Shown piece after piece: positions 1,217 to 5,761 of a DNA stretch of 6,085 nt (positions within the stretch are counted from its first letter, which is position 1; each line of letters starts with the position of its first letter). Below the pieces are notes generated by a model. That model ran no database searches and was not told where the DNA came from. It worked only from the letters and a program-made list of their open reading frames with translations. The stretch covers positions 1 to 6,085 of the IMG/VR virus record IMGVR_UViG_3300022758_000031. One strand, written 5' to 3'. The position numbers and the translations under genes were made by a program. The DNA is from a virus.

Positions 1217-1363
1217 ATGTTAATAACAAGAACAAAAGTGCGTGGATTCAAAGCAGTAACCAACAAAAATATACCAGCACGTATCGCAACAAGACACTAC
1301 TTCGCATATCAAGAAGTAGAAGGAAGAGAATTAAAAATAATAACAACAAAAAAAACTTTTTAA
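1217..1363 (+). CDS. Small, highly basic hypothetical protein (48 aa); possible J/VP8-like DNA-binding packaging protein
   Basis: Not in the ORF track. Hand translation: MLITRTKVRGFKAVTNKNIPARIATRHYFAYQEVEGRELKIITTKKTF, stop TAA at 1361-1363. It has a perfect AGGAGG RBS, 11 K/R against 3 D/E, and its stop lies 2 nt before the next ATG. Confidence 0.65.
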   Translation: MLITRTKVRGFKAVTNKNIPARIATRHYFAYQEVEGRELKIITTKKTF

Positions 1364-1365
1364 TT

Positions 1366-1587
1366 ATGGCAGCAACAAAATTTACAGCAATCTACGTAAA
1401 CAACGAAGGTAAAATCATCGAAAGAGAAATTCCAGGTATGAACACTTACAAAATAGCAGAAAAATTTGCTATAATATTAAACGAACCGGAAGAAACAAAA
1501 TTAGTAGGAGTAATAGAAACATGGAAAATGTATCCTAATAATTATGAAAAAACCAAAAAAGAAAACAATTTGGGTAGTGAAAAATAA
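1366..1587 (+). CDS. Hypothetical protein (73 aa)
   Basis: ATG lies 2 nt after the preceding stop. ORF on the phage coding strand. No family recognised. Confidence 0.6.
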   Translation: MAATKFTAIYVNNEGKIIEREIPGMNTYKIAEKFAIILNEPEETKLVGVIETWKMYPNNYEKTKKENNLGSEK

Positions 1588-1798
1588 AACATTTACTACA
1601 TTTAAGGCGTTCAAAACATATGCCTGGTTTAATATGATACCGGGAGAATGTACAAACGGGTTCGAAATATTCGAAGATACGGTAATTAAAGAATACAATT
1701 TAAATAGAAAAGAAAGGAGGTTAATAATAGAAAAAATTTATGACGAAGAAGAAGAAAAAATCAAAAAAATTAATATTCAACAACTTAAATTATTTTAA
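1544..1798 (+). CDS. Hypothetical protein (84 aa if it starts at 1544; start uncertain, alternative ATG at 1634)
   Basis: + strand ORF that overlaps the previous ORF by 44 nt in another frame. Lys-rich N-terminus (MKKPKKK) and acidic C-terminal half (DEEEEK). Its stop lies 1 nt before the next ATG. Confidence 0.5.
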   Translation: MKKPKKKTIWVVKNKTFTTFKAFKTYAWFNMIPGECTNGFEIFEDTVIKEYNLNRKERRLIIEKIYDEEEEKIKKINIQQLKLF

Positions 1799-1799
1799 A

Positions 1800-2003
1800 A
1801 TGAAAGTTACAGGTAATCAATGGATAGAAATTATCCGGGCAATCTCAACGGCAATTATAGCAGTAATCACAACGTTATATGTGCAAAGTTGTACAATGAG
1901 TTTGAGCGTAGCAAAAAACAACAACAACGCTAGTCAAAAAACCGAACAAACGTCAACTTCAAGTATTGACAGTACAAAAATTAGTATTAATCCTAAAATG
2001 TAA
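1800..2003 (+). CDS. Small membrane / lipoprotein-like protein (67 aa); candidate lysis or exclusion factor
   Basis: ATG at 1800 lies 1 nt after the upstream stop; the track's longer version starts at 1740 in the same frame. Sequence MKVTGNQWIEIIRAISTAIIAVITTLYVQSC... has a single hydrophobic helix ending in Cys31 (TGT 1890-1892), then a polar N/S/T/Q-rich tail. Confidence 0.6.
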   Translation: MKVTGNQWIEIIRAISTAIIAVITTLYVQSCTMSLSVAKNNNNASQKTEQTSTSSIDSTKISINPKM

Positions 2004-2256: not shown

Positions 2257-4215
2257 ATGAGTATTCAAAAAAACATTGGTAAAAATACCATAGGCGATAA
2301 TAAAAAAATGGAGGTAGACTTGAGAACCTATAACAGGTCAACTCATAACCTATCTACAATTGTAAGAAATACACAATCAGCCGGAACATTAGTGCCAACA
2401 TTGACACTAATAATGCAAAAAGATGACACATTTGAAATCAACATTGAATCAAGCGTATTAACACATCCGACAACCGGACCGTTATACGGATCGTTCAAAT
2501 TAGAAAATCACTTATTTTTCATACCATTCAGACTTTACAACAGTTGGCTACACAACAACAGGATAGGCATAGGCTTAAATATGAGCCAAATCAAATTACC
2601 ACAATTAAAAGTAAATCTAAAAAAATTTATGGACCAACCGGGTGAAGATAATCTACAATGGTCACAAGTAAACCCTAGTTGCCTATTATCATACCTAGGT
2701 ATTAAGGGTTACGGAGGTTTTAAAACAGGCGTAACAACAACAGTTGCAAGTAAAAATGCAGTAAAATTACTAGGATATTGGGATATATTCAAAAATTACT
2801 ATGCTAACAAACAAGAAAAAATAGCATATTTTATCGGAAGCAATGACCCAATAGAAGCAACTATTAACACAACTCCAGTAATAAACCCGAACAATATTAA
2901 TCAAGCGGAAGGTACAGTAAAAGTTAACGCGACAATTAAAATCAATGACCCAAGCAAAATTTATACAGAAAATAATGTAAAATTATGGATAACACAAAAA
3001 ATTGGACATTCACCGGTACAAATGACAGCGGGGGAAATAGGCTCAACAAATTGGGCAGAGAATAAATTTACCATAACACTAGACAGTATACCAACGGGGG
3101 AAACGTGGTGGATACGTTCAATACAATCAACAGAACAACAAGCACTAACAACATTCAGCCTAGACGAAATAGACAAAATGAGAGACGAAATACTAGCAAC
3201 AGCGGGAAACGTAACATACGAGCTAGCAGGAAATGAAAGCGAAGAAATAACTATGAAAAAAATGTTCGGTGAAAGAGGAATAAACCAAAAATTAAAAAGC
3301 ACAAGACCTCAATACGGACTACTATTAAGAACCTACAACAGCGACCTATACCAAAATTGGATAAACACCGAATGGATAGAAGGCGCAAACGGAATCAATG
3401 AAATATCATCCGTAGACGTAACAGATGGTAAACTATCAATAGACGCTCTAAATTTAGCGCAAAAAGTTTACAATATGTTAAATAGAATTGCAGTAAGCGG
3501 AGGAACATACAGGGACTGGCTAGAAACGGTATACGCAAGCGGAAAATACCTAGAGAGATGCGAAACACCTACATTCGAAGGAGGAACAAGTCAAGAAATT
3601 GTATTTCAAGAAGTAGTCAGTAACTCAGCGACAGAAGACGAACCGCTAGGAACGTTAGCAGGAAGAGGCATAAACGCTGGCAAACAAAAAGGCGGAAAAA
3701 TCAAAATCAGAGCAACAGAACCGGGCTACATAATGTCAATAACAAGCATTACACCTAGAATCGATTACAGCCAAGGAAATGATTTTGATACAGATTGGGA
3801 AACAATCGATGATATGCACAAACCAGCACTAGACGGTATAGGATACCAAGACAGCGTAAATACAGGGCGAGCATGGTGGGATGATACATACATAAATTCA
3901 GTAGGTACACTCCAAAAACATGCAGCAGGAAAAACAGTAGCCTGGATAGATTACATGACAAATGTAAATAGAACATACGGAAACTTTGCATCCGGCATGA
4001 GCGAGGCATTTATGGTGCTAAACAGAAACTACCAAATGAAAATAGGAACAGACGGAAATACACTGATAGATGATTTAACAACATACATCGACCCAGTAAA
4101 ATATAATTATATTTTCGCTGATACAAGTATCGACGCAATGAATTTCTGGGTGCAAATTAAATATGACATCACAGCGAGAAGATTAATGAGTGCAAAACAA
4201 ATTCCAAATTTATAA
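2257..4215 (+). CDS. VP1: Major capsid protein (Microviridae VP1 / F-like), 652 aa
   Basis: Largest ORF, with GGAGG 6 nt upstream. Block ...NRSTHNLSTIVRNTQSAGTLVPTLT...DTFEINIESSVLTHPTTGPLYGSFKLENHLFFIPFRLYN... matches the conserved N-terminal pattern of microvirus F/VP1 jelly-roll proteins as I recall it. Confidence 0.95.
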   Translation: MSIQKNIGKNTIGDNKKMEVDLRTYNRSTHNLSTIVRNTQSAGTLVPTLTLIMQKDDTFEINIESSVLTHPTTGPLYGSFKLENHLFFIPFRLYNSWLHNNRIGIGLNMSQIKLPQLKVNLKKFMDQPGEDNLQWSQVNPSCLLSYLGIKGYGGFKTGVTTTVASKNAVKLLGYWDIFKNYYANKQEKIAYFIGSNDPIEATINTTPVINPNNINQAEGTVKVNATIKINDPSKIYTENNVKLWITQKIGHSPVQMTAGEIGSTNWAENKFTITLDSIPTGETWWIRSIQSTEQQALTTFSLDEIDKMRDEILATAGNVTYELAGNESEEITMKKMFGERGINQKLKSTRPQYGLLLRTYNSDLYQNWINTEWIEGANGINEISSVDVTDGKLSIDALNLAQKVYNMLNRIAVSGGTYRDWLETVYASGKYLERCETPTFEGGTSQEIVFQEVVSNSATEDEPLGTLAGRGINAGKQKGGKIKIRATEPGYIMSITSITPRIDYSQGNDFDTDWETIDDMHKPALDGIGYQDSVNTGRAWWDDTYINSVGTLQKHAAGKTVAWIDYMTNVNRTYGNFASGMSEAFMVLNRNYQMKIGTDGNTLIDDLTTYIDPVKYNYIFADTSIDAMNFWVQIKYDITARRLMSAKQIPNL

Positions 4216-4675: not shown

Positions 4676-5761
4676 ATGTTAGGAGGAATAATAGCAGCAG
4701 CAACTTCAGCAATTGGAAGCCAAATTAAAGGAATCGAGGCAAGAGATGCAGAAGATAGAGCTTATACCAAACAAAAAGAGCTAATGCAAGACCAATACGA
4801 TTATAATAACAAGATGGCAGAAGAAAATCAAAGAAGAGACAAGGAAATGTGGAACTATACAAACTTTGAAAACCAAAAACAACACCTATTAAATGCAAAT
4901 TTATCACCCGGGCTATTTTACGGTGGAGGTGGAGCAGGCGGAGCATCTACAAGCGGAGGTCAAGGACAAGGCATAGGACTAGGAAGTGAAACAGGAGTAG
5001 GATATAGAATCCAAGAAAAAGCACTAGGACTACAACTAGCAAACACAGTATCTCAAATCGCATTAAATGAAAGCCAGGCTAACAAAAACAATGCAGAAGC
5101 CGAAAAAATTGCAGGAGCAGACACCAAAGTAGCCGAAAAAGAAGCGGAAATGTTAGAATCTCAAAGCGAATTTAATAAAAGAATTACCAAGTTACAAGAC
5201 AGTATCGAAAAACTGACAAATGCACAAGAGCAAAAAACAGCCGCAGAATATTTTTATATTCAAGCACAGGAGAAGAAGGTATGGGAAGAAGTACGGGAAC
5301 AAGTTGTAAAAGCCGACGTAGCGGAAAAAACAAAAGAAGCCATGATACGTAAAACAACCCTAGAAAACTTTAACCTCATACAATCAGGTATTGAATCAAT
5401 AACAAGACAAAAGCTTAACAGTGAACAAATAAATTACCTTAAAGGTCAAATTGCAATAGGTTGGGCCAACGTAGCAATAGGTGAAAAATCAGTAGCAAAC
5501 GAAAGCGACAGAATCGCCAACGAGCTGATGATAGGAATGAGAGACCTAGACAGAAAAGACCGTGAACTTATCAAAAATTGGATATATGAAGGAATCCACG
5601 CAGGAAAAGAAATAAGCGGTGAAATCCTCAATTGGTTAATGAAAGGTGCACCTAAAACAATAGCGGAAGTAACCGGAAGAATTGAAGAAATGTTTGATAG
5701 CGAAGGAAAACAAATCGGATCAAAAACAATACAACAAACCGTAACAAAAACAGCAGAATAA
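4676..5761 (+). CDS. VP2: Minor capsid / DNA pilot protein (Microviridae VP2, phiX174 H-like), 361 aa
   Basis: Small-residue hydrophobic N-terminus MLGGIIAAATSAIGSQIKG. Gly-rich tract YGGGGAGGASTSGGQGQGIGLGS (about 4921-4990). Long E/K/Q/A-rich helical region. Position between capsid and Rep fits pilot-protein architecture. Confidence 0.82.
   Translation: MLGGIIAAATSAIGSQIKGIEARDAEDRAYTKQKELMQDQYDYNNKMAEENQRRDKEMWNYTNFENQKQHLLNANLSPGLFYGGGGAGGASTSGGQGQGIGLGSETGVGYRIQEKALGLQLANTVSQIALNESQANKNNAEAEKIAGADTKVAEKEAEMLESQSEFNKRITKLQDSIEKLTNAQEQKTAAEYFYIQAQEKKVWEEVREQVVKADVAEKTKEAMIRKTTLENFNLIQSGIESITRQKLNSEQINYLKGQIAIGWANVAIGEKSVANESDRIANELMIGMRDLDRKDRELIKNWIYEGIHAGKEISGEILNWLMKGAPKTIAEVTGRIEEMFDSEGKQIGSKTIQQTVTKTAE

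What the first reader, a model, noticed from the sequence alone, without database searches (positions are those of the whole stretch)
1800..2003. Small single-pass membrane / lipoprotein-like protein: candidate lysis or superinfection-exclusion gene
MKVTGNQWIEIIRAISTAIIAVITTLYVQSC-TMSLSVAKNNNNASQKTEQTSTSSIDSTKISINPKM has a single hydrophobic helix of about 18 residues ending in ...VQSC. This is loosely lipobox-like, with the Cys at codon 31 (1890-1892). A low-complexity polar tail follows. Outside the phiX174 group, where the small membrane protein E blocks MraY, lysis genes of microviruses are largely unidentified, and this genome encodes no recognisable endolysin or peptidase. A 67-aa membrane-anchored protein is the only obvious candidate for a single-gene lysis function. 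It could instead be a surface-modifying or exclusion lipoprotein.
Basis: partly seen in the sequence, partly recalled or inferred. Interest (0 to 1): 0.62.

Follow-up and report, generated by a model that had tools for sequence, protein, structure and literature searches.

The report
Small lipoprotein, likely microvirus lysis gene
This 67-codon gene of a gut Bacteroides microvirus is real and strongly conserved, encodes a tiny exported, lipid-anchored and probably sugar-tagged peptide, and sits where related small replicons carry a cell-wall-cutting enzyme, so it is the best, still untested, candidate for how these phages burst their hosts.

Summary
It has 680 homologue clusters. Synonymous sites are saturated while the amino acids stay fixed.

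The protein has two parts:
- An N-terminal helix ending in a lipobox, with Cys31 invariant.
- A 36-residue polar tail. This is not low-complexity filler. It is the best-conserved protein segment shared by microvirus lineages whose capsid and Rep proteins are 25% identical or less.

The tail carries an invariant D-S-T, the O-glycosylation motif of Bacteroidota. Integrated copies show that the host is Bacteroides.

The N-terminal half is related to the 'smalltalk' micropeptides (DUF6486). These lie next to cell-wall amidase genes in Bacteroides.

In an unrelated family of 3.6-4.7 kb gut replicons, the gene order is either smalltalk, Rep, M15 peptidase, or smalltalk, this lipoprotein, Rep with no peptidase. 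The lipoprotein and the peptidase never occur together. No lipoprotein-bearing microvirus examined has a wall hydrolase.

The best reading is a lysis effector that stands in for an endolysin (about 0.55). Superinfection exclusion fits poorly. Nothing here is experimental.

Earlier follow-ups in this scan reached the same family and similar conclusions on other genomes. The replicon swap is the new piece.

The parts
1800..2003 (+). Gene for the 67-aa lipoprotein precursor (stop codon included)
   Evidence: ORF list and sequence. 680 homologue clusters. Purifying selection acts at the protein level while synonymous sites are saturated.
1800..1889 (+). Codons 1-30: signal peptide / membrane helix, related to 'smalltalk' (DUF6486) micropeptides
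   Evidence: AlphaFold helix 5-33. NCBIfam NF033879 E 0.0017, below the cut-off. hhalign of the family against 12 smalltalk peptides gives 96.5% probability and score 44.7, against 14.1 or less for reversed and shuffled controls.
1881..1892 (+). Lipobox V28-Q29-S30-C31, with Cys31 the predicted lipidation and cleavage site
   Evidence: Cys is invariant in alignments of 15, 17 and 62 members. Residue statistics at -3, -1 and +2 come from 272 distinct sequences. Distant members carry LVASC, LLSSC, LVAAC and LLTGC.
1890..2000 (+). Codons 31-67: mature 37-residue polar peptide with consensus C-T-x-S-[LM]-S-[VI]-x-K-N-N-x-N-S-x-Q-x-T-E-Q...[VI]-D-S-T-x-I-N
   Evidence: Invariant columns T32, S34, S36, K39, N40, N41, N43, T48, E49, Q50, S55, D57, S58, T59 among close lineages. 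73-84% identity in lineages with unrecognisable capsids. Predicted disordered.
1968..1976 (+). D57-S58-T59: match to the Bacteroidota general O-glycosylation motif D-(S/T)-(A/I/L/V/M/T)
   Evidence: D57 is invariant and S58 is at least 90% conserved in 62 diverse members. 247 of 272 sequences have D[ST][AILVMT] 24-28 residues after the Cys, and the third residue is only T, A, V, I or L. The motif is as stated in PMC8550257.

Best explanation
The gene encodes a small lipoprotein precursor.

Shown from sequence and comparison:
- A membrane-targeting helix ends in a conserved lipobox cysteine.
- A conserved 36-residue polar tail follows it.
- The tail carries the Bacteroidota O-glycosylation motif.

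Inferred processing:
- The precursor is exported by Sec.
- It is lipidated at Cys31 and cleaved by signal peptidase II.
- The disordered peptide stays tethered to a membrane on the periplasmic side, where Ser58 is glycosylated.

Inferred function:
- The peptide is the phage's lysis effector.
- It replaces a peptidoglycan hydrolase by acting on a conserved host envelope component.
- It could do this by switching on a host autolysin or by blocking wall synthesis.
- The smalltalk-like N-terminal helix, possibly released as a free membrane peptide, supplies the membrane-acting part. In related elements a separate smalltalk gene supplies that part.
For: A real, constrained gene:
-.

Lipoprotein features:
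- Cys31 is invariant, -1 is S/A/G in 263 of 272 sequences, and +2 is T in 249 of 272.
- Distant members have textbook signal peptides.
- The invariant D-S-T sequon implies a periplasmic tail.

Host:
- Integrated proviruses lie in Bacteroides chromosomes.

No other lysis candidate:
- No hydrolase family in any window ORF.
- No other hydrophobic ORF on the coding strand.
- No M15 match, and no hydrolase in the accessory ORF clusters of 63 lipoprotein-bearing loci.

Mobility:
- The tail is 73-84% identical in lineages whose capsid and Rep are 25% identical or less.
- The gene lies either between Rep and capsid or between pilot and Rep.
- Those are the two slots reported for M15 peptidase genes in Alpavirinae (PMC3394797).

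Link to wall hydrolases:
- The N-terminal half is related to smalltalk/DUF6486.
- 9 of 12 smalltalk genes examined in Bacteroides abut an amidase-like gene starting ..HCSAT. Four of these neighbours were confirmed as Amidase_2 by Pfam.
- The same neighbourhood was published by Sberro et al. (bioRxiv 10.1101/494179).

Natural swap in the 3.6-4.7 kb replicons:
- 51 loci carry smalltalk plus M15.
- 4 loci carry this lipoprotein, 3 of them with smalltalk, and none has M15. This includes complete units of 3781 and 3903 nt.
- Fisher p = 0.003.
Against: - There is no experiment of any kind. All support for lysis is by elimination, by neighbourhood and by an anticorrelation.
- That anticorrelation rests on only two independent lipoprotein lineages in the small replicons.
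- The role of smalltalk itself is unknown. Its link to lysis is adjacency only.
- Across all GenBank microviruses both the lipoprotein (57 records) and M15 are rare. Their non-overlap there is therefore not significant on its own.
- No mechanism is known by which a 36-residue disordered glycolipopeptide could break a cell wall.
- The window protein has Tyr at -4. That falls outside the strict PROSITE lipoprotein pattern as I recall it.
- Some lineages integrate as proviruses, where an exclusion or host-modifying role would also make sense.
Confidence: 0.55

Rival explanations
1. Superinfection-exclusion or receptor-masking lipoprotein, like T5 Llp or phi80 Cor. The periplasmic lipopeptide would bind the phage's outer-membrane receptor, or another envelope protein. 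This would block further infection and protect progeny from cell debris.
For: - It is a small phage lipoprotein.
- Some lineages are temperate and integrated in Bacteroides, where such genes are useful.
- It behaves like a mobile accessory gene.
Against: - The tail is nearly invariant across microviruses whose capsid proteins, the receptor-binding part, are 25% identical or less or not alignable. It is also present in non-microviral replicons. A receptor blocker should change with the receptor.
- This reading does not explain why the gene replaces the M15 peptidase in minimal 3.8-3.9 kb replicons that have only three or four genes.
- It would leave these genomes with no lysis function.
Confidence: 0.15
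2. Uncleaved signal-anchor membrane protein acting mainly through its helix. It would be a smalltalk-type, holin-like peptide with an added periplasmic tail. It would depolarise or permeabilise the inner membrane, and the host's own signal-less amidases or autolysins would do the wall cutting.
For: - The N-terminal half is related to smalltalk peptides.
- Many smalltalk peptides lack the cysteine, so they are not lipoproteins.
- They are translationally coupled to signal-less Amidase_2 genes in Bacteroides.
- They accompany signal-less M15 peptidases in small replicons.
- Bacteroides genomes hold 2-8 such modules.
Against: - Within the viral family the helix sequence is the variable part. The Cys and the tail are the constrained parts.
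- Members with plain, short, non-smalltalk signal peptides exist.
- Some of these sit beside a separate smalltalk gene. So the tail carries the family's specific function.
Confidence: 0.15
3. Some other envelope role unrelated to lysis or exclusion. Examples are helping non-lytic release, changing the host surface or vesicles, or acting as a glycopeptide signal.
For: - The function of smalltalk is unknown, and it was first proposed to act in cross-talk (bioRxiv 10.1101/494179).
- The conserved glycosylation motif would suit a secreted or displayed peptide.
- phiHBP1, the one cultured Bacteroides microvirus, makes turbid plaques (PMC13064476).
Against: - The residues after the Cys (C-T-x-S-[LM]-S) are not acidic. 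As I recall, Bacteroidota surface-export signals are acidic there, so the peptide probably stays periplasmic.
- Minimal replicons keep this gene as their only accessory gene besides smalltalk.
- The anticorrelation with M15 would be unexplained.
Confidence: 0.1

Closest known systems
'Smalltalk' micropeptides of Bacteroidales (NCBIfam NF033879; Pfam DUF6486, PF20096; family #350024 of Sberro et al.)
   Same: - The N-terminal 30 residues align in register: Met, basic residue, Trp, helix, and in some smalltalk copies ...VQSC.
- hhalign probability is 96.5%.
- Some viral members pass the Pfam cut-off, for example P0212 at 30.7 bits.
- Both are tied to cell-wall hydrolase contexts and to small replicons of gut Bacteroidales.
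   Different: - Smalltalk peptides are 24-40 aa and end at or just after the helix. Many lack the cysteine, and none has the conserved tail.
- They are common chromosomal genes, with 2-8 copies per genome.
- The tailed protein was found in 1 of 301 Bacteroidales genomes sampled, and there in a provirus.
- The window protein scores below the NCBIfam cut-off.
- The function of smalltalk is itself unknown.
Colicin lysis proteins / bacteriocin release proteins (ColE1 Kil, pCloDF13 BRP; Pfam Lysis_col)
   Same: - Both are small lipoprotein precursors of about 45-70 aa. The mature peptide is polar, about 28-37 residues long, and carried on a small replicon.
- From my own knowledge of that literature, both the lipopeptide and the stable signal peptide of BRPs contribute to envelope damage. 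This parallels the two-part reading proposed here.
   Different: - No sequence similarity: the window protein has no Pfam match other than a chance one.
- The hosts are different phyla.
- BRPs act through outer-membrane phospholipase A and cause leakage or quasi-lysis, not phage release.
- BRPs have no glycosylation motif.
phiX174 protein E and other single-gene lysis proteins of small phages
   Same: - All are small membrane-targeted proteins in tiny phage genomes with no endolysin.
- All are proposed to lyse by subverting host wall metabolism.
   Different: - E is overprinted inside another gene, and its transmembrane helix is the specific, essential part. Its C-terminal part is replaceable.
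- Here the gene stands alone, the helix is variable, and the exported tail is the constrained part.
- To my knowledge, no lipoprotein-type or glycosylated single-gene lysis protein has been described. Library searches found none.
M15_3 peptidase genes of Alpavirinae and gokushoviruses (Roux et al. 2012, PMC3394797)
   Same: - Both are accessory genes in the same two genome slots, pilot-Rep and Rep-capsid.
- Both are exchanged between distant microviruses.
- They are mutually exclusive in the data seen here.
   Different: The M15_3 peptidase is a recognisable zinc peptidase of about 135 aa without a signal peptide. This gene encodes a 37-residue lipopeptide with no enzyme fold.

Membership tests
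Bacterial lipoprotein (signal peptidase II substrate) | N-terminal basic region, a hydrophobic stretch, then a lipobox with a small residue at -1 and an invariant Cys at +1, within the first ~35 residues | tested here: met
   - K2 and R13, a helix at 5-33, V-Q-S-C with Cys at residue 31.
- Cys is invariant. Position -1 is S241/A17/G5 of 272, and -3 is V198/A27/L13/I7.
- Distant members carry LVASC, LLSSC, LVAAC and LLTGC.
- Caveat: Tyr27 at -4 falls outside the strict PROSITE PS51257 pattern as I recall it.
Bacterial lipoprotein (signal peptidase II substrate) | Actual lipid modification and globomycin-sensitive cleavage | not testable with these tools
   Needs lipid labelling or mass spectrometry of the product made in Bacteroides.
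Bacteroidota O-glycoprotein | The motif D-(S/T)-(A/I/L/V/M/T) in a part of the protein exported from the cytoplasm | tested here: met
   - D57-S58-T59 lies downstream of the signal peptide.
- 247 of 272 sequences keep the motif 24-28 residues after the Cys, and nearly all exceptions are frameshifted or truncated calls.
- The motif is quoted from PMC8550257.
- Attachment of a glycan was not testable.
Smalltalk protein / DUF6486 | Match to the curated profile above its cut-off | tested here: not met
   - Window protein: NF033879 scores 18.1 bits against a cut-off of 24.7, and PF20096 gives no match at E of 1 or less.
- Only 5 of 62 family members match PF20096 at E of 1 or less. Of the 20 scanned individually, P0212 (30.7 bits) passes the 22.7-bit cut-off and P0217 (19.4 bits) does not.
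- Profile-profile comparison still supports relatedness of the N-terminal half.
Smalltalk protein / DUF6486 | A micropeptide of about 24-40 aa lying next to an HU-like gene and a cell-wall amidase | tested here: not met
   - The protein is 67 aa with a conserved extra tail.
- Its neighbours in the window are small ORFs and the capsid gene.
- The smalltalk neighbourhood itself was confirmed in three Bacteroides genomes.
Colicin lysis protein (Lysis_col) | Sequence membership in the Pfam family | tested here: not met
   The only Pfam match to the window protein at E of 1 or less is a chance CERK_C hit.
phiX174 E-type lysis protein | A gene overprinted in another gene, with the transmembrane helix as the conserved, specific element | tested here: not met
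   - This is a free-standing gene.
- The helix falls into at least four divergent classes while the tail is conserved.
Receptor-blocking phage lipoproteins (T5 Llp, Cor) | Sequence similarity, and specificity that follows the phage's receptor-binding protein | tested here: not met
   - No family match.
- The tail is 73-84% identical where capsid proteins are 25% identical or less.
o-spanin (Rz1-like) | An outer-membrane lipoprotein paired with an inner-membrane spanin, a holin and an endolysin | tested here: not met
   - There is no endolysin, no second membrane protein and no Pro-rich mature part.
- None of these families matched in the PHROGs search.

The most novel reading that the evidence does not exclude
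The precursor is a two-in-one lysis cassette of a kind not described before. Signal peptidase II would cut it into a smalltalk-like membrane peptide with a holin-like role and a glycosylated lipopeptide. The lipopeptide would replace an endolysin by hijacking a conserved Bacteroides wall-remodelling or glycan-carrier step. If so, it is a lipoprotein-type single-gene lysis system, shared horizontally among unrelated small ssDNA replicons of the gut.
Probability: 0.25. Interest if true: 0.85.

Novelty: new variant of a known kind. Interest (0 to 1): 0.7.

Why it matters
Microviruses of Bacteroidales are among the most abundant phages of the human gut. Outside the phiX174 group and the minority that carry an M15 peptidase, how they lyse their hosts is unknown.

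- This family gives a concrete, easily testable candidate. It is 67 codons long and has three obvious point mutants: Cys31, Asp57/Ser58 and a tail deletion.
- The near-invariant tail points to a conserved and possibly essential Bacteroides envelope target. Single-gene lysis proteins have historically revealed such targets (MraY, MurA, MurJ).
- It also gives a first functional handle on the widespread but uncharacterised smalltalk micropeptides.
- It draws attention to an abundant class of 3.6-4.7 kb gut replicons.

Tried and rejected
Searches that found nothing:
- Pfam, PHROGs and NCBIfam gave no significant family for the whole window protein.
- A profile search of PDB sequences found nothing.
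- AlphaFold shows only a helix and a disordered tail, so a fold search of this protein would be meaningless.
- Paper searches for microvirus lipoprotein or lysis proteins, DUF6486, and DUF4248 plus amidase found no functional work.

Ideas rejected:
- DNA-level conservation, from a cis element or an overprinted frame, is rejected because synonymous sites are saturated.
- The +2-frame ORF 1820-1933 appears only as frameshift chimeras in the databases.

Tests that led nowhere:
- Scanning IMG/VR with one M15 peptidase returned mostly unrelated environmental phages, so it did not test mutual exclusion.
- Scanning IMG/VR with the replicon's large protein found nothing.
- The lysis cassettes of a Bacteroides siphophage (BKR1) and a crAss-like phage (cr52_1) hold no relatives of smalltalk or of this protein.
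- The two M15-bearing microviruses fetched, phiHBP1 and bajarodmic virus 66, have neither smalltalk nor this protein by my HMMs.

Side branch:
- The large protein of the small replicons was folded (pTM 0.70). It has no PDB match and only one weak match to an uncharacterised viral protein. Whether these replicons are viruses or plasmids stays open.

Full report
**What the window is**

The 6085 bases are one circular microvirus genome of 5958 nt with a 127-nt wrap-around. All genes lie on the + strand.
- Rep runs from 5761 across the junction to 801.
- The major capsid protein is at 2257-4215 (Phage_F, phrog_514).
- The pilot protein is at 4676-5761.
- Between Rep and the capsid gene lies a chain of small ORFs. 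The finding is one of them.

**The observation**

ATG 1800 to TAA 2003 encodes the 67-residue protein exactly as quoted, and TGT at 1890-1892 is codon 31.
- The upstream gene stops at 1796-1798 and the next gene starts at 2010.
- An in-frame ATG at 1740 would give 87 aa. In most relatives a stop lies four codons before Met1, so the 67-aa form is the conserved one.
- On the coding strand this frame has the strongest hydrophobic window. Its Kyte-Doolittle score over 17 residues is 1.86. The next best, 1.41, is the known N-terminal membrane segment of the pilot protein.
- AlphaFold, given 62 aligned relatives, models residues 5-33 as a confident helix (pLDDT 82-93). The rest is disordered (pLDDT 50-62).
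- No ORF of the window matches a peptidoglycan hydrolase in Pfam or PHROGs.

**A real and unusually conserved gene**

The protein has many relatives.
- 680 homologue clusters at 90% identity.
- 57 GenBank microvirus records from human, lemur, rodent and tortoise faeces, all annotated 'hypothetical protein' or not annotated.
- 63 IMG/VR loci.
- 108 representatives in a profile search of 1.84 billion proteins, all of them 41-125 aa long.

Conservation acts on the protein, not on the DNA.
- Among 62 distinct coding sequences the mean pairwise synonymous difference is about 0.75.
- Invariant serines switch between AGY and TCN codons.

- The N-terminal helix falls into at least four divergent sequence classes.
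- The 'low-complexity' tail is nearly fixed: C-T-x-S-[LM]-S-[VI]-x-K-N-N-x-N-S-x-Q-K-T-E-Q-T-x-T-S-S-[VI]-D-S-T-x-I-N.
- In lineages whose capsid and Rep proteins are 25% identical or less to the window's, or not detectable, the mature peptide is still 73-84% identical.

The gene also moves within genomes.
- In the window, and in loci such as L005, L058 and L146, it lies between Rep and the capsid gene.
- In Dulem viruses 232 and 263 it lies between the pilot gene and Rep.
- Roux et al. reported M15 peptidase genes of Alpavirinae in these same two slots (PMC3394797).
- Kirchberger et al. noted that unexplained small proteins of about 65 aa link microviral families that otherwise share nothing (PMC9239249). 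This family is probably among them.

**Host**

- Homologues lie in integrated microvirus proviruses in Bacteroides chromosomes and metagenome-assembled genomes.
- One is in a 3.7-Mb contig of Bacteroides sp. f07, flanked by ClpB-like, GyrA and TPR genes on one side and a Usp gene on the other.
- An IMG/VR 'provirus' of 43.7 kb has the same TPR-domain neighbour.
- In a sample of 301 Bacteroidales genomes only the one with that provirus has the gene. It is therefore a gene of mobile elements, not of the host.

**Lipoprotein**

- Cys31 is invariant in alignments of 15, 17 and 62 members.
- In 272 distinct sequences, position -1 is S, A or G in 263. Position -3 is V, A, L or I in 245. Position +2 is T in 249.
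- Distant members have short, textbook lipoprotein signal peptides. Examples are MNKFAIILSTLLVASC..LLLSSC..MLVAAC and ..GLLTGC.
- The window protein itself has Tyr at -4, which is outside the strict PROSITE pattern as I recall it. The family evidence outweighs that.
- Lipidation itself cannot be shown with these tools.

**A glycosylation motif**

- After the cysteine, the most conserved residues in 62 diverse members are D57 (invariant) and S58 (at least 90%).
- D57-S58-T59 matches the three-residue O-glycosylation motif of Bacteroidota, D-(S/T)-(A/I/L/V/M/T) (PMC8550257).
- Of the 272 sequences, 247 keep such a motif 24-28 residues after the Cys: DST 217, DSA 11, DSV 8, DSI 7, DSL 3, DTI 1. 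The third residue is never outside the permitted set.
- Nearly all exceptions are frameshifted or truncated gene calls.
- This supports a periplasmic location for the tail and suggests that glycosylation matters for its function.

**Relation to smalltalk**

- Residues 8-32 of the window protein match NCBIfam NF033879 'smalltalk protein' weakly (E 0.0017, 18.1 bits, cut-off 24.7).
- Five of 62 family members match the equivalent Pfam family DUF6486 at E of 1 or less, with a best E of 4e-12. P0212 passes the cut-off.
- I collected 12 smalltalk genes from the three Bacteroides genomes that hold proviruses. These genomes have 5, 8 and 2 copies.
- The products are peptides of about 30-35 residues. 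Some end ...GVQSCM and many end ...GANAMNL with no cysteine.
- Profile-profile comparison of the viral family with these 12 gives 96.5% probability, score 44.7, over the N-terminal 37 columns in register.
- Controls score far lower: 11.7 for the reversed alignment and at most 14.1 for 20 column shuffles. The resemblance is therefore not just hydrophobic composition.
- Nine of the 12 smalltalk genes abut a signal-less amidase-like gene starting ..HCSAT, several through an ATGA overlap. An HU-like gene and, in several loci, a DUF4248-like gene lie upstream.
- Pfam confirmed four of the amidase neighbours as Amidase_2, two HU-HIG genes and one DUF4248 gene.
- Sberro et al. described the same neighbourhood for their family #350024 (bioRxiv 10.1101/494179).
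- The function of smalltalk is unknown. Its coupling to cytoplasmic wall hydrolases suggests a holin-like partner, but that is inference.

**The natural swap**

Looking up distant family members led to a different kind of element.
- P0214 (52 aa, lipobox LVAAC) lies on a 10,994-nt concatemer of a 3781-nt unit.
- Each unit encodes a 342-aa protein of a large family, the lipoprotein, and a Rep_trans-like initiator (phrog_20614, E 3.5e-8). The rest is a GC-rich non-coding stretch.
- The large protein has 1034 clusters, some tagged DUF6266, on contigs of 3.5-5 kb.
- Relatives of 3.6-4.7 kb encode the large protein, then a 26-30-aa smalltalk gene, then Rep, then a signal-less M15_3 peptidase.

A scan of metagenome contigs gave 80 more loci. 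I classified them with HMMs and tblastn.
- 51 have smalltalk and M15.
- 4 have M15 without a detected smalltalk.
- 7 have smalltalk only. Three of these are short fragments.
- 4 have the tailed lipoprotein, and none of those has M15.

Complete lipoprotein-bearing units are of two kinds.
- 3781 nt, with the lipoprotein alone.
- 3903 nt, with smalltalk plus a lipoprotein that has a plain LSSC signal peptide. Here Rep is followed directly by the GC-rich region.

So the tailed lipoprotein takes the place of the M15 peptidase while smalltalk stays. Fisher's test gives p = 0.003. Only two independent lipoprotein lineages stand behind that number.

Among the microviruses, none of the 63 lipoprotein-bearing loci has an M15 match or a hydrolase among its accessory ORF clusters. 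phiHBP1, the one cultured Bacteroides microvirus, has an M15_3 peptidase and no lipoprotein (PMC13064476). Across GenBank both genes are rare, so their non-overlap there carries little statistical weight.

**Interpretation**

Shown:
- a real, mobile, strongly constrained gene of Bacteroides microviruses and other small replicons;
- a lipoprotein-type precursor;
- a conserved tail with a glycosylation motif;
- an N-terminal half related to smalltalk;
- mutual exclusion with M15 and, in one replicon family, replacement of it.

Inferred:
- export, lipidation and cleavage at Cys31, and glycosylation at Ser58;
- a role as the lysis effector that stands in for an endolysin. I put this at about 0.55.

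How a 36-residue disordered glycolipopeptide would breach the wall is open. The obvious options are activation of a host autolysin and blockage of a wall-synthesis step. The near-invariance of the tail across very different phages argues for a conserved host target.

A more novel version is also possible. Signal peptidase II would release a smalltalk-like membrane peptide and the lipopeptide from one precursor, giving a two-part lysis system in 67 codons.

Superinfection exclusion fits poorly. A receptor blocker should vary with the capsid, and it would not replace a hydrolase in a three- or four-gene replicon.

**Comparison with what is known**

- The nearest relatives by sequence are the uncharacterised smalltalk peptides. 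The protein fails their membership tests on score, length and neighbourhood.
- The nearest functional analogues are the colicin lysis lipoproteins, which are similar in size and architecture. There is no sequence relation, and the hosts and mechanism differ.
- It is not like phiX174 E in gene layout or in which part is constrained.
- I found no paper describing this family.

**Relation to this scan's earlier notes**

After my own analysis I looked up earlier notes.
- Several follow-ups on other genomes had already reached this family. They reported the lipoprotein reading, the smalltalk relation, the amidase neighbourhood, exclusion with the peptidase and, in one case, the sugar tag.
- I confirmed each of these independently here.
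- One note gave the lead to the Sberro paper, which I checked.
- Others report smalltalk-like micropeptides in front of M15 genes in microviruses. I did not see this in the two M15 microviruses I fetched, but I did see it in the small replicons.
- The replicon swap was not in the notes that I retrieved.

**Limits**

- All functional statements are computational inference.

Noticed in passing
L160 (unit 3781 nt), L222 (unit 3903 nt), L164-L168, L170, L172-L230: An abundant family of 3.6-4.7 kb circular replicons occurs in human-gut metagenomes, with coverage up to about 1100x in contig names. They encode a 325-342-aa protein (partly DUF6266) with a disordered basic N-terminus, a Rep_trans-like initiator, a smalltalk micropeptide and usually an M15_3 peptidase. 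Integrated-looking copies lie in contigs of 78-96 kb; L167 sits beside CRISPR-Cas genes. The large protein has no PDB fold match, so whether these are viruses or plasmids is open.
   Followed up: partly
L077 4379-4582 and L078 4657-4848 (Dulem viruses 232 and 263): The same lipoprotein gene lies between the pilot gene and Rep instead of between Rep and the capsid gene. These genomes have capsids only 23-29% identical to the window's. This is evidence of horizontal movement between distant microviruses.
   Followed up: yes
window 1334-1998: This is the only stretch of the window that megablast matches over more than about 100 nt in GenBank phages. It covers two small ORFs plus the lipoprotein gene and is 76.8% identical to PV067927. 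The small-ORF cassette is therefore better conserved or more exchanged than the core genes.
   Followed up: no
window 1740-1799: An in-frame upstream ATG gives an 87-aa form with a lysine-rich extension that overlaps the preceding ORF. One database gene call uses it (P0001). Most relatives have a stop four codons before Met1, so this start is probably wrong.
   Followed up: partly
L015 388-3003: In one IMG/VR contig the lipoprotein frame runs on into the major capsid gene as a single 871-codon ORF. This is probably an indel or an assembly error at the 1-3 nt junction, not a real fusion.
   Followed up: no
L072 about 7200-13800; L059: A microvirus provirus in Bacteroides sp. f07 lies between a TPR-protein gene (downstream of gyrA) and a Usp gene. 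An IMG/VR provirus contig has the same TPR-domain neighbour, which suggests a preferred integration site.
   Followed up: partly
L076 3245-3367; L077 3661-3777: Other tiny single-helix ORFs of 38-40 aa lie after the pilot gene in an M15-bearing microvirus and in a lipoprotein-bearing one. They are unrelated in sequence to smalltalk and may be further membrane partners.
   Followed up: no
L221, L225, L229, L216: Some near-complete small replicons have smalltalk but neither M15 nor the lipoprotein by my searches. They may carry yet another lysis solution, or a hydrolase too divergent for tblastn.
   Followed up: no
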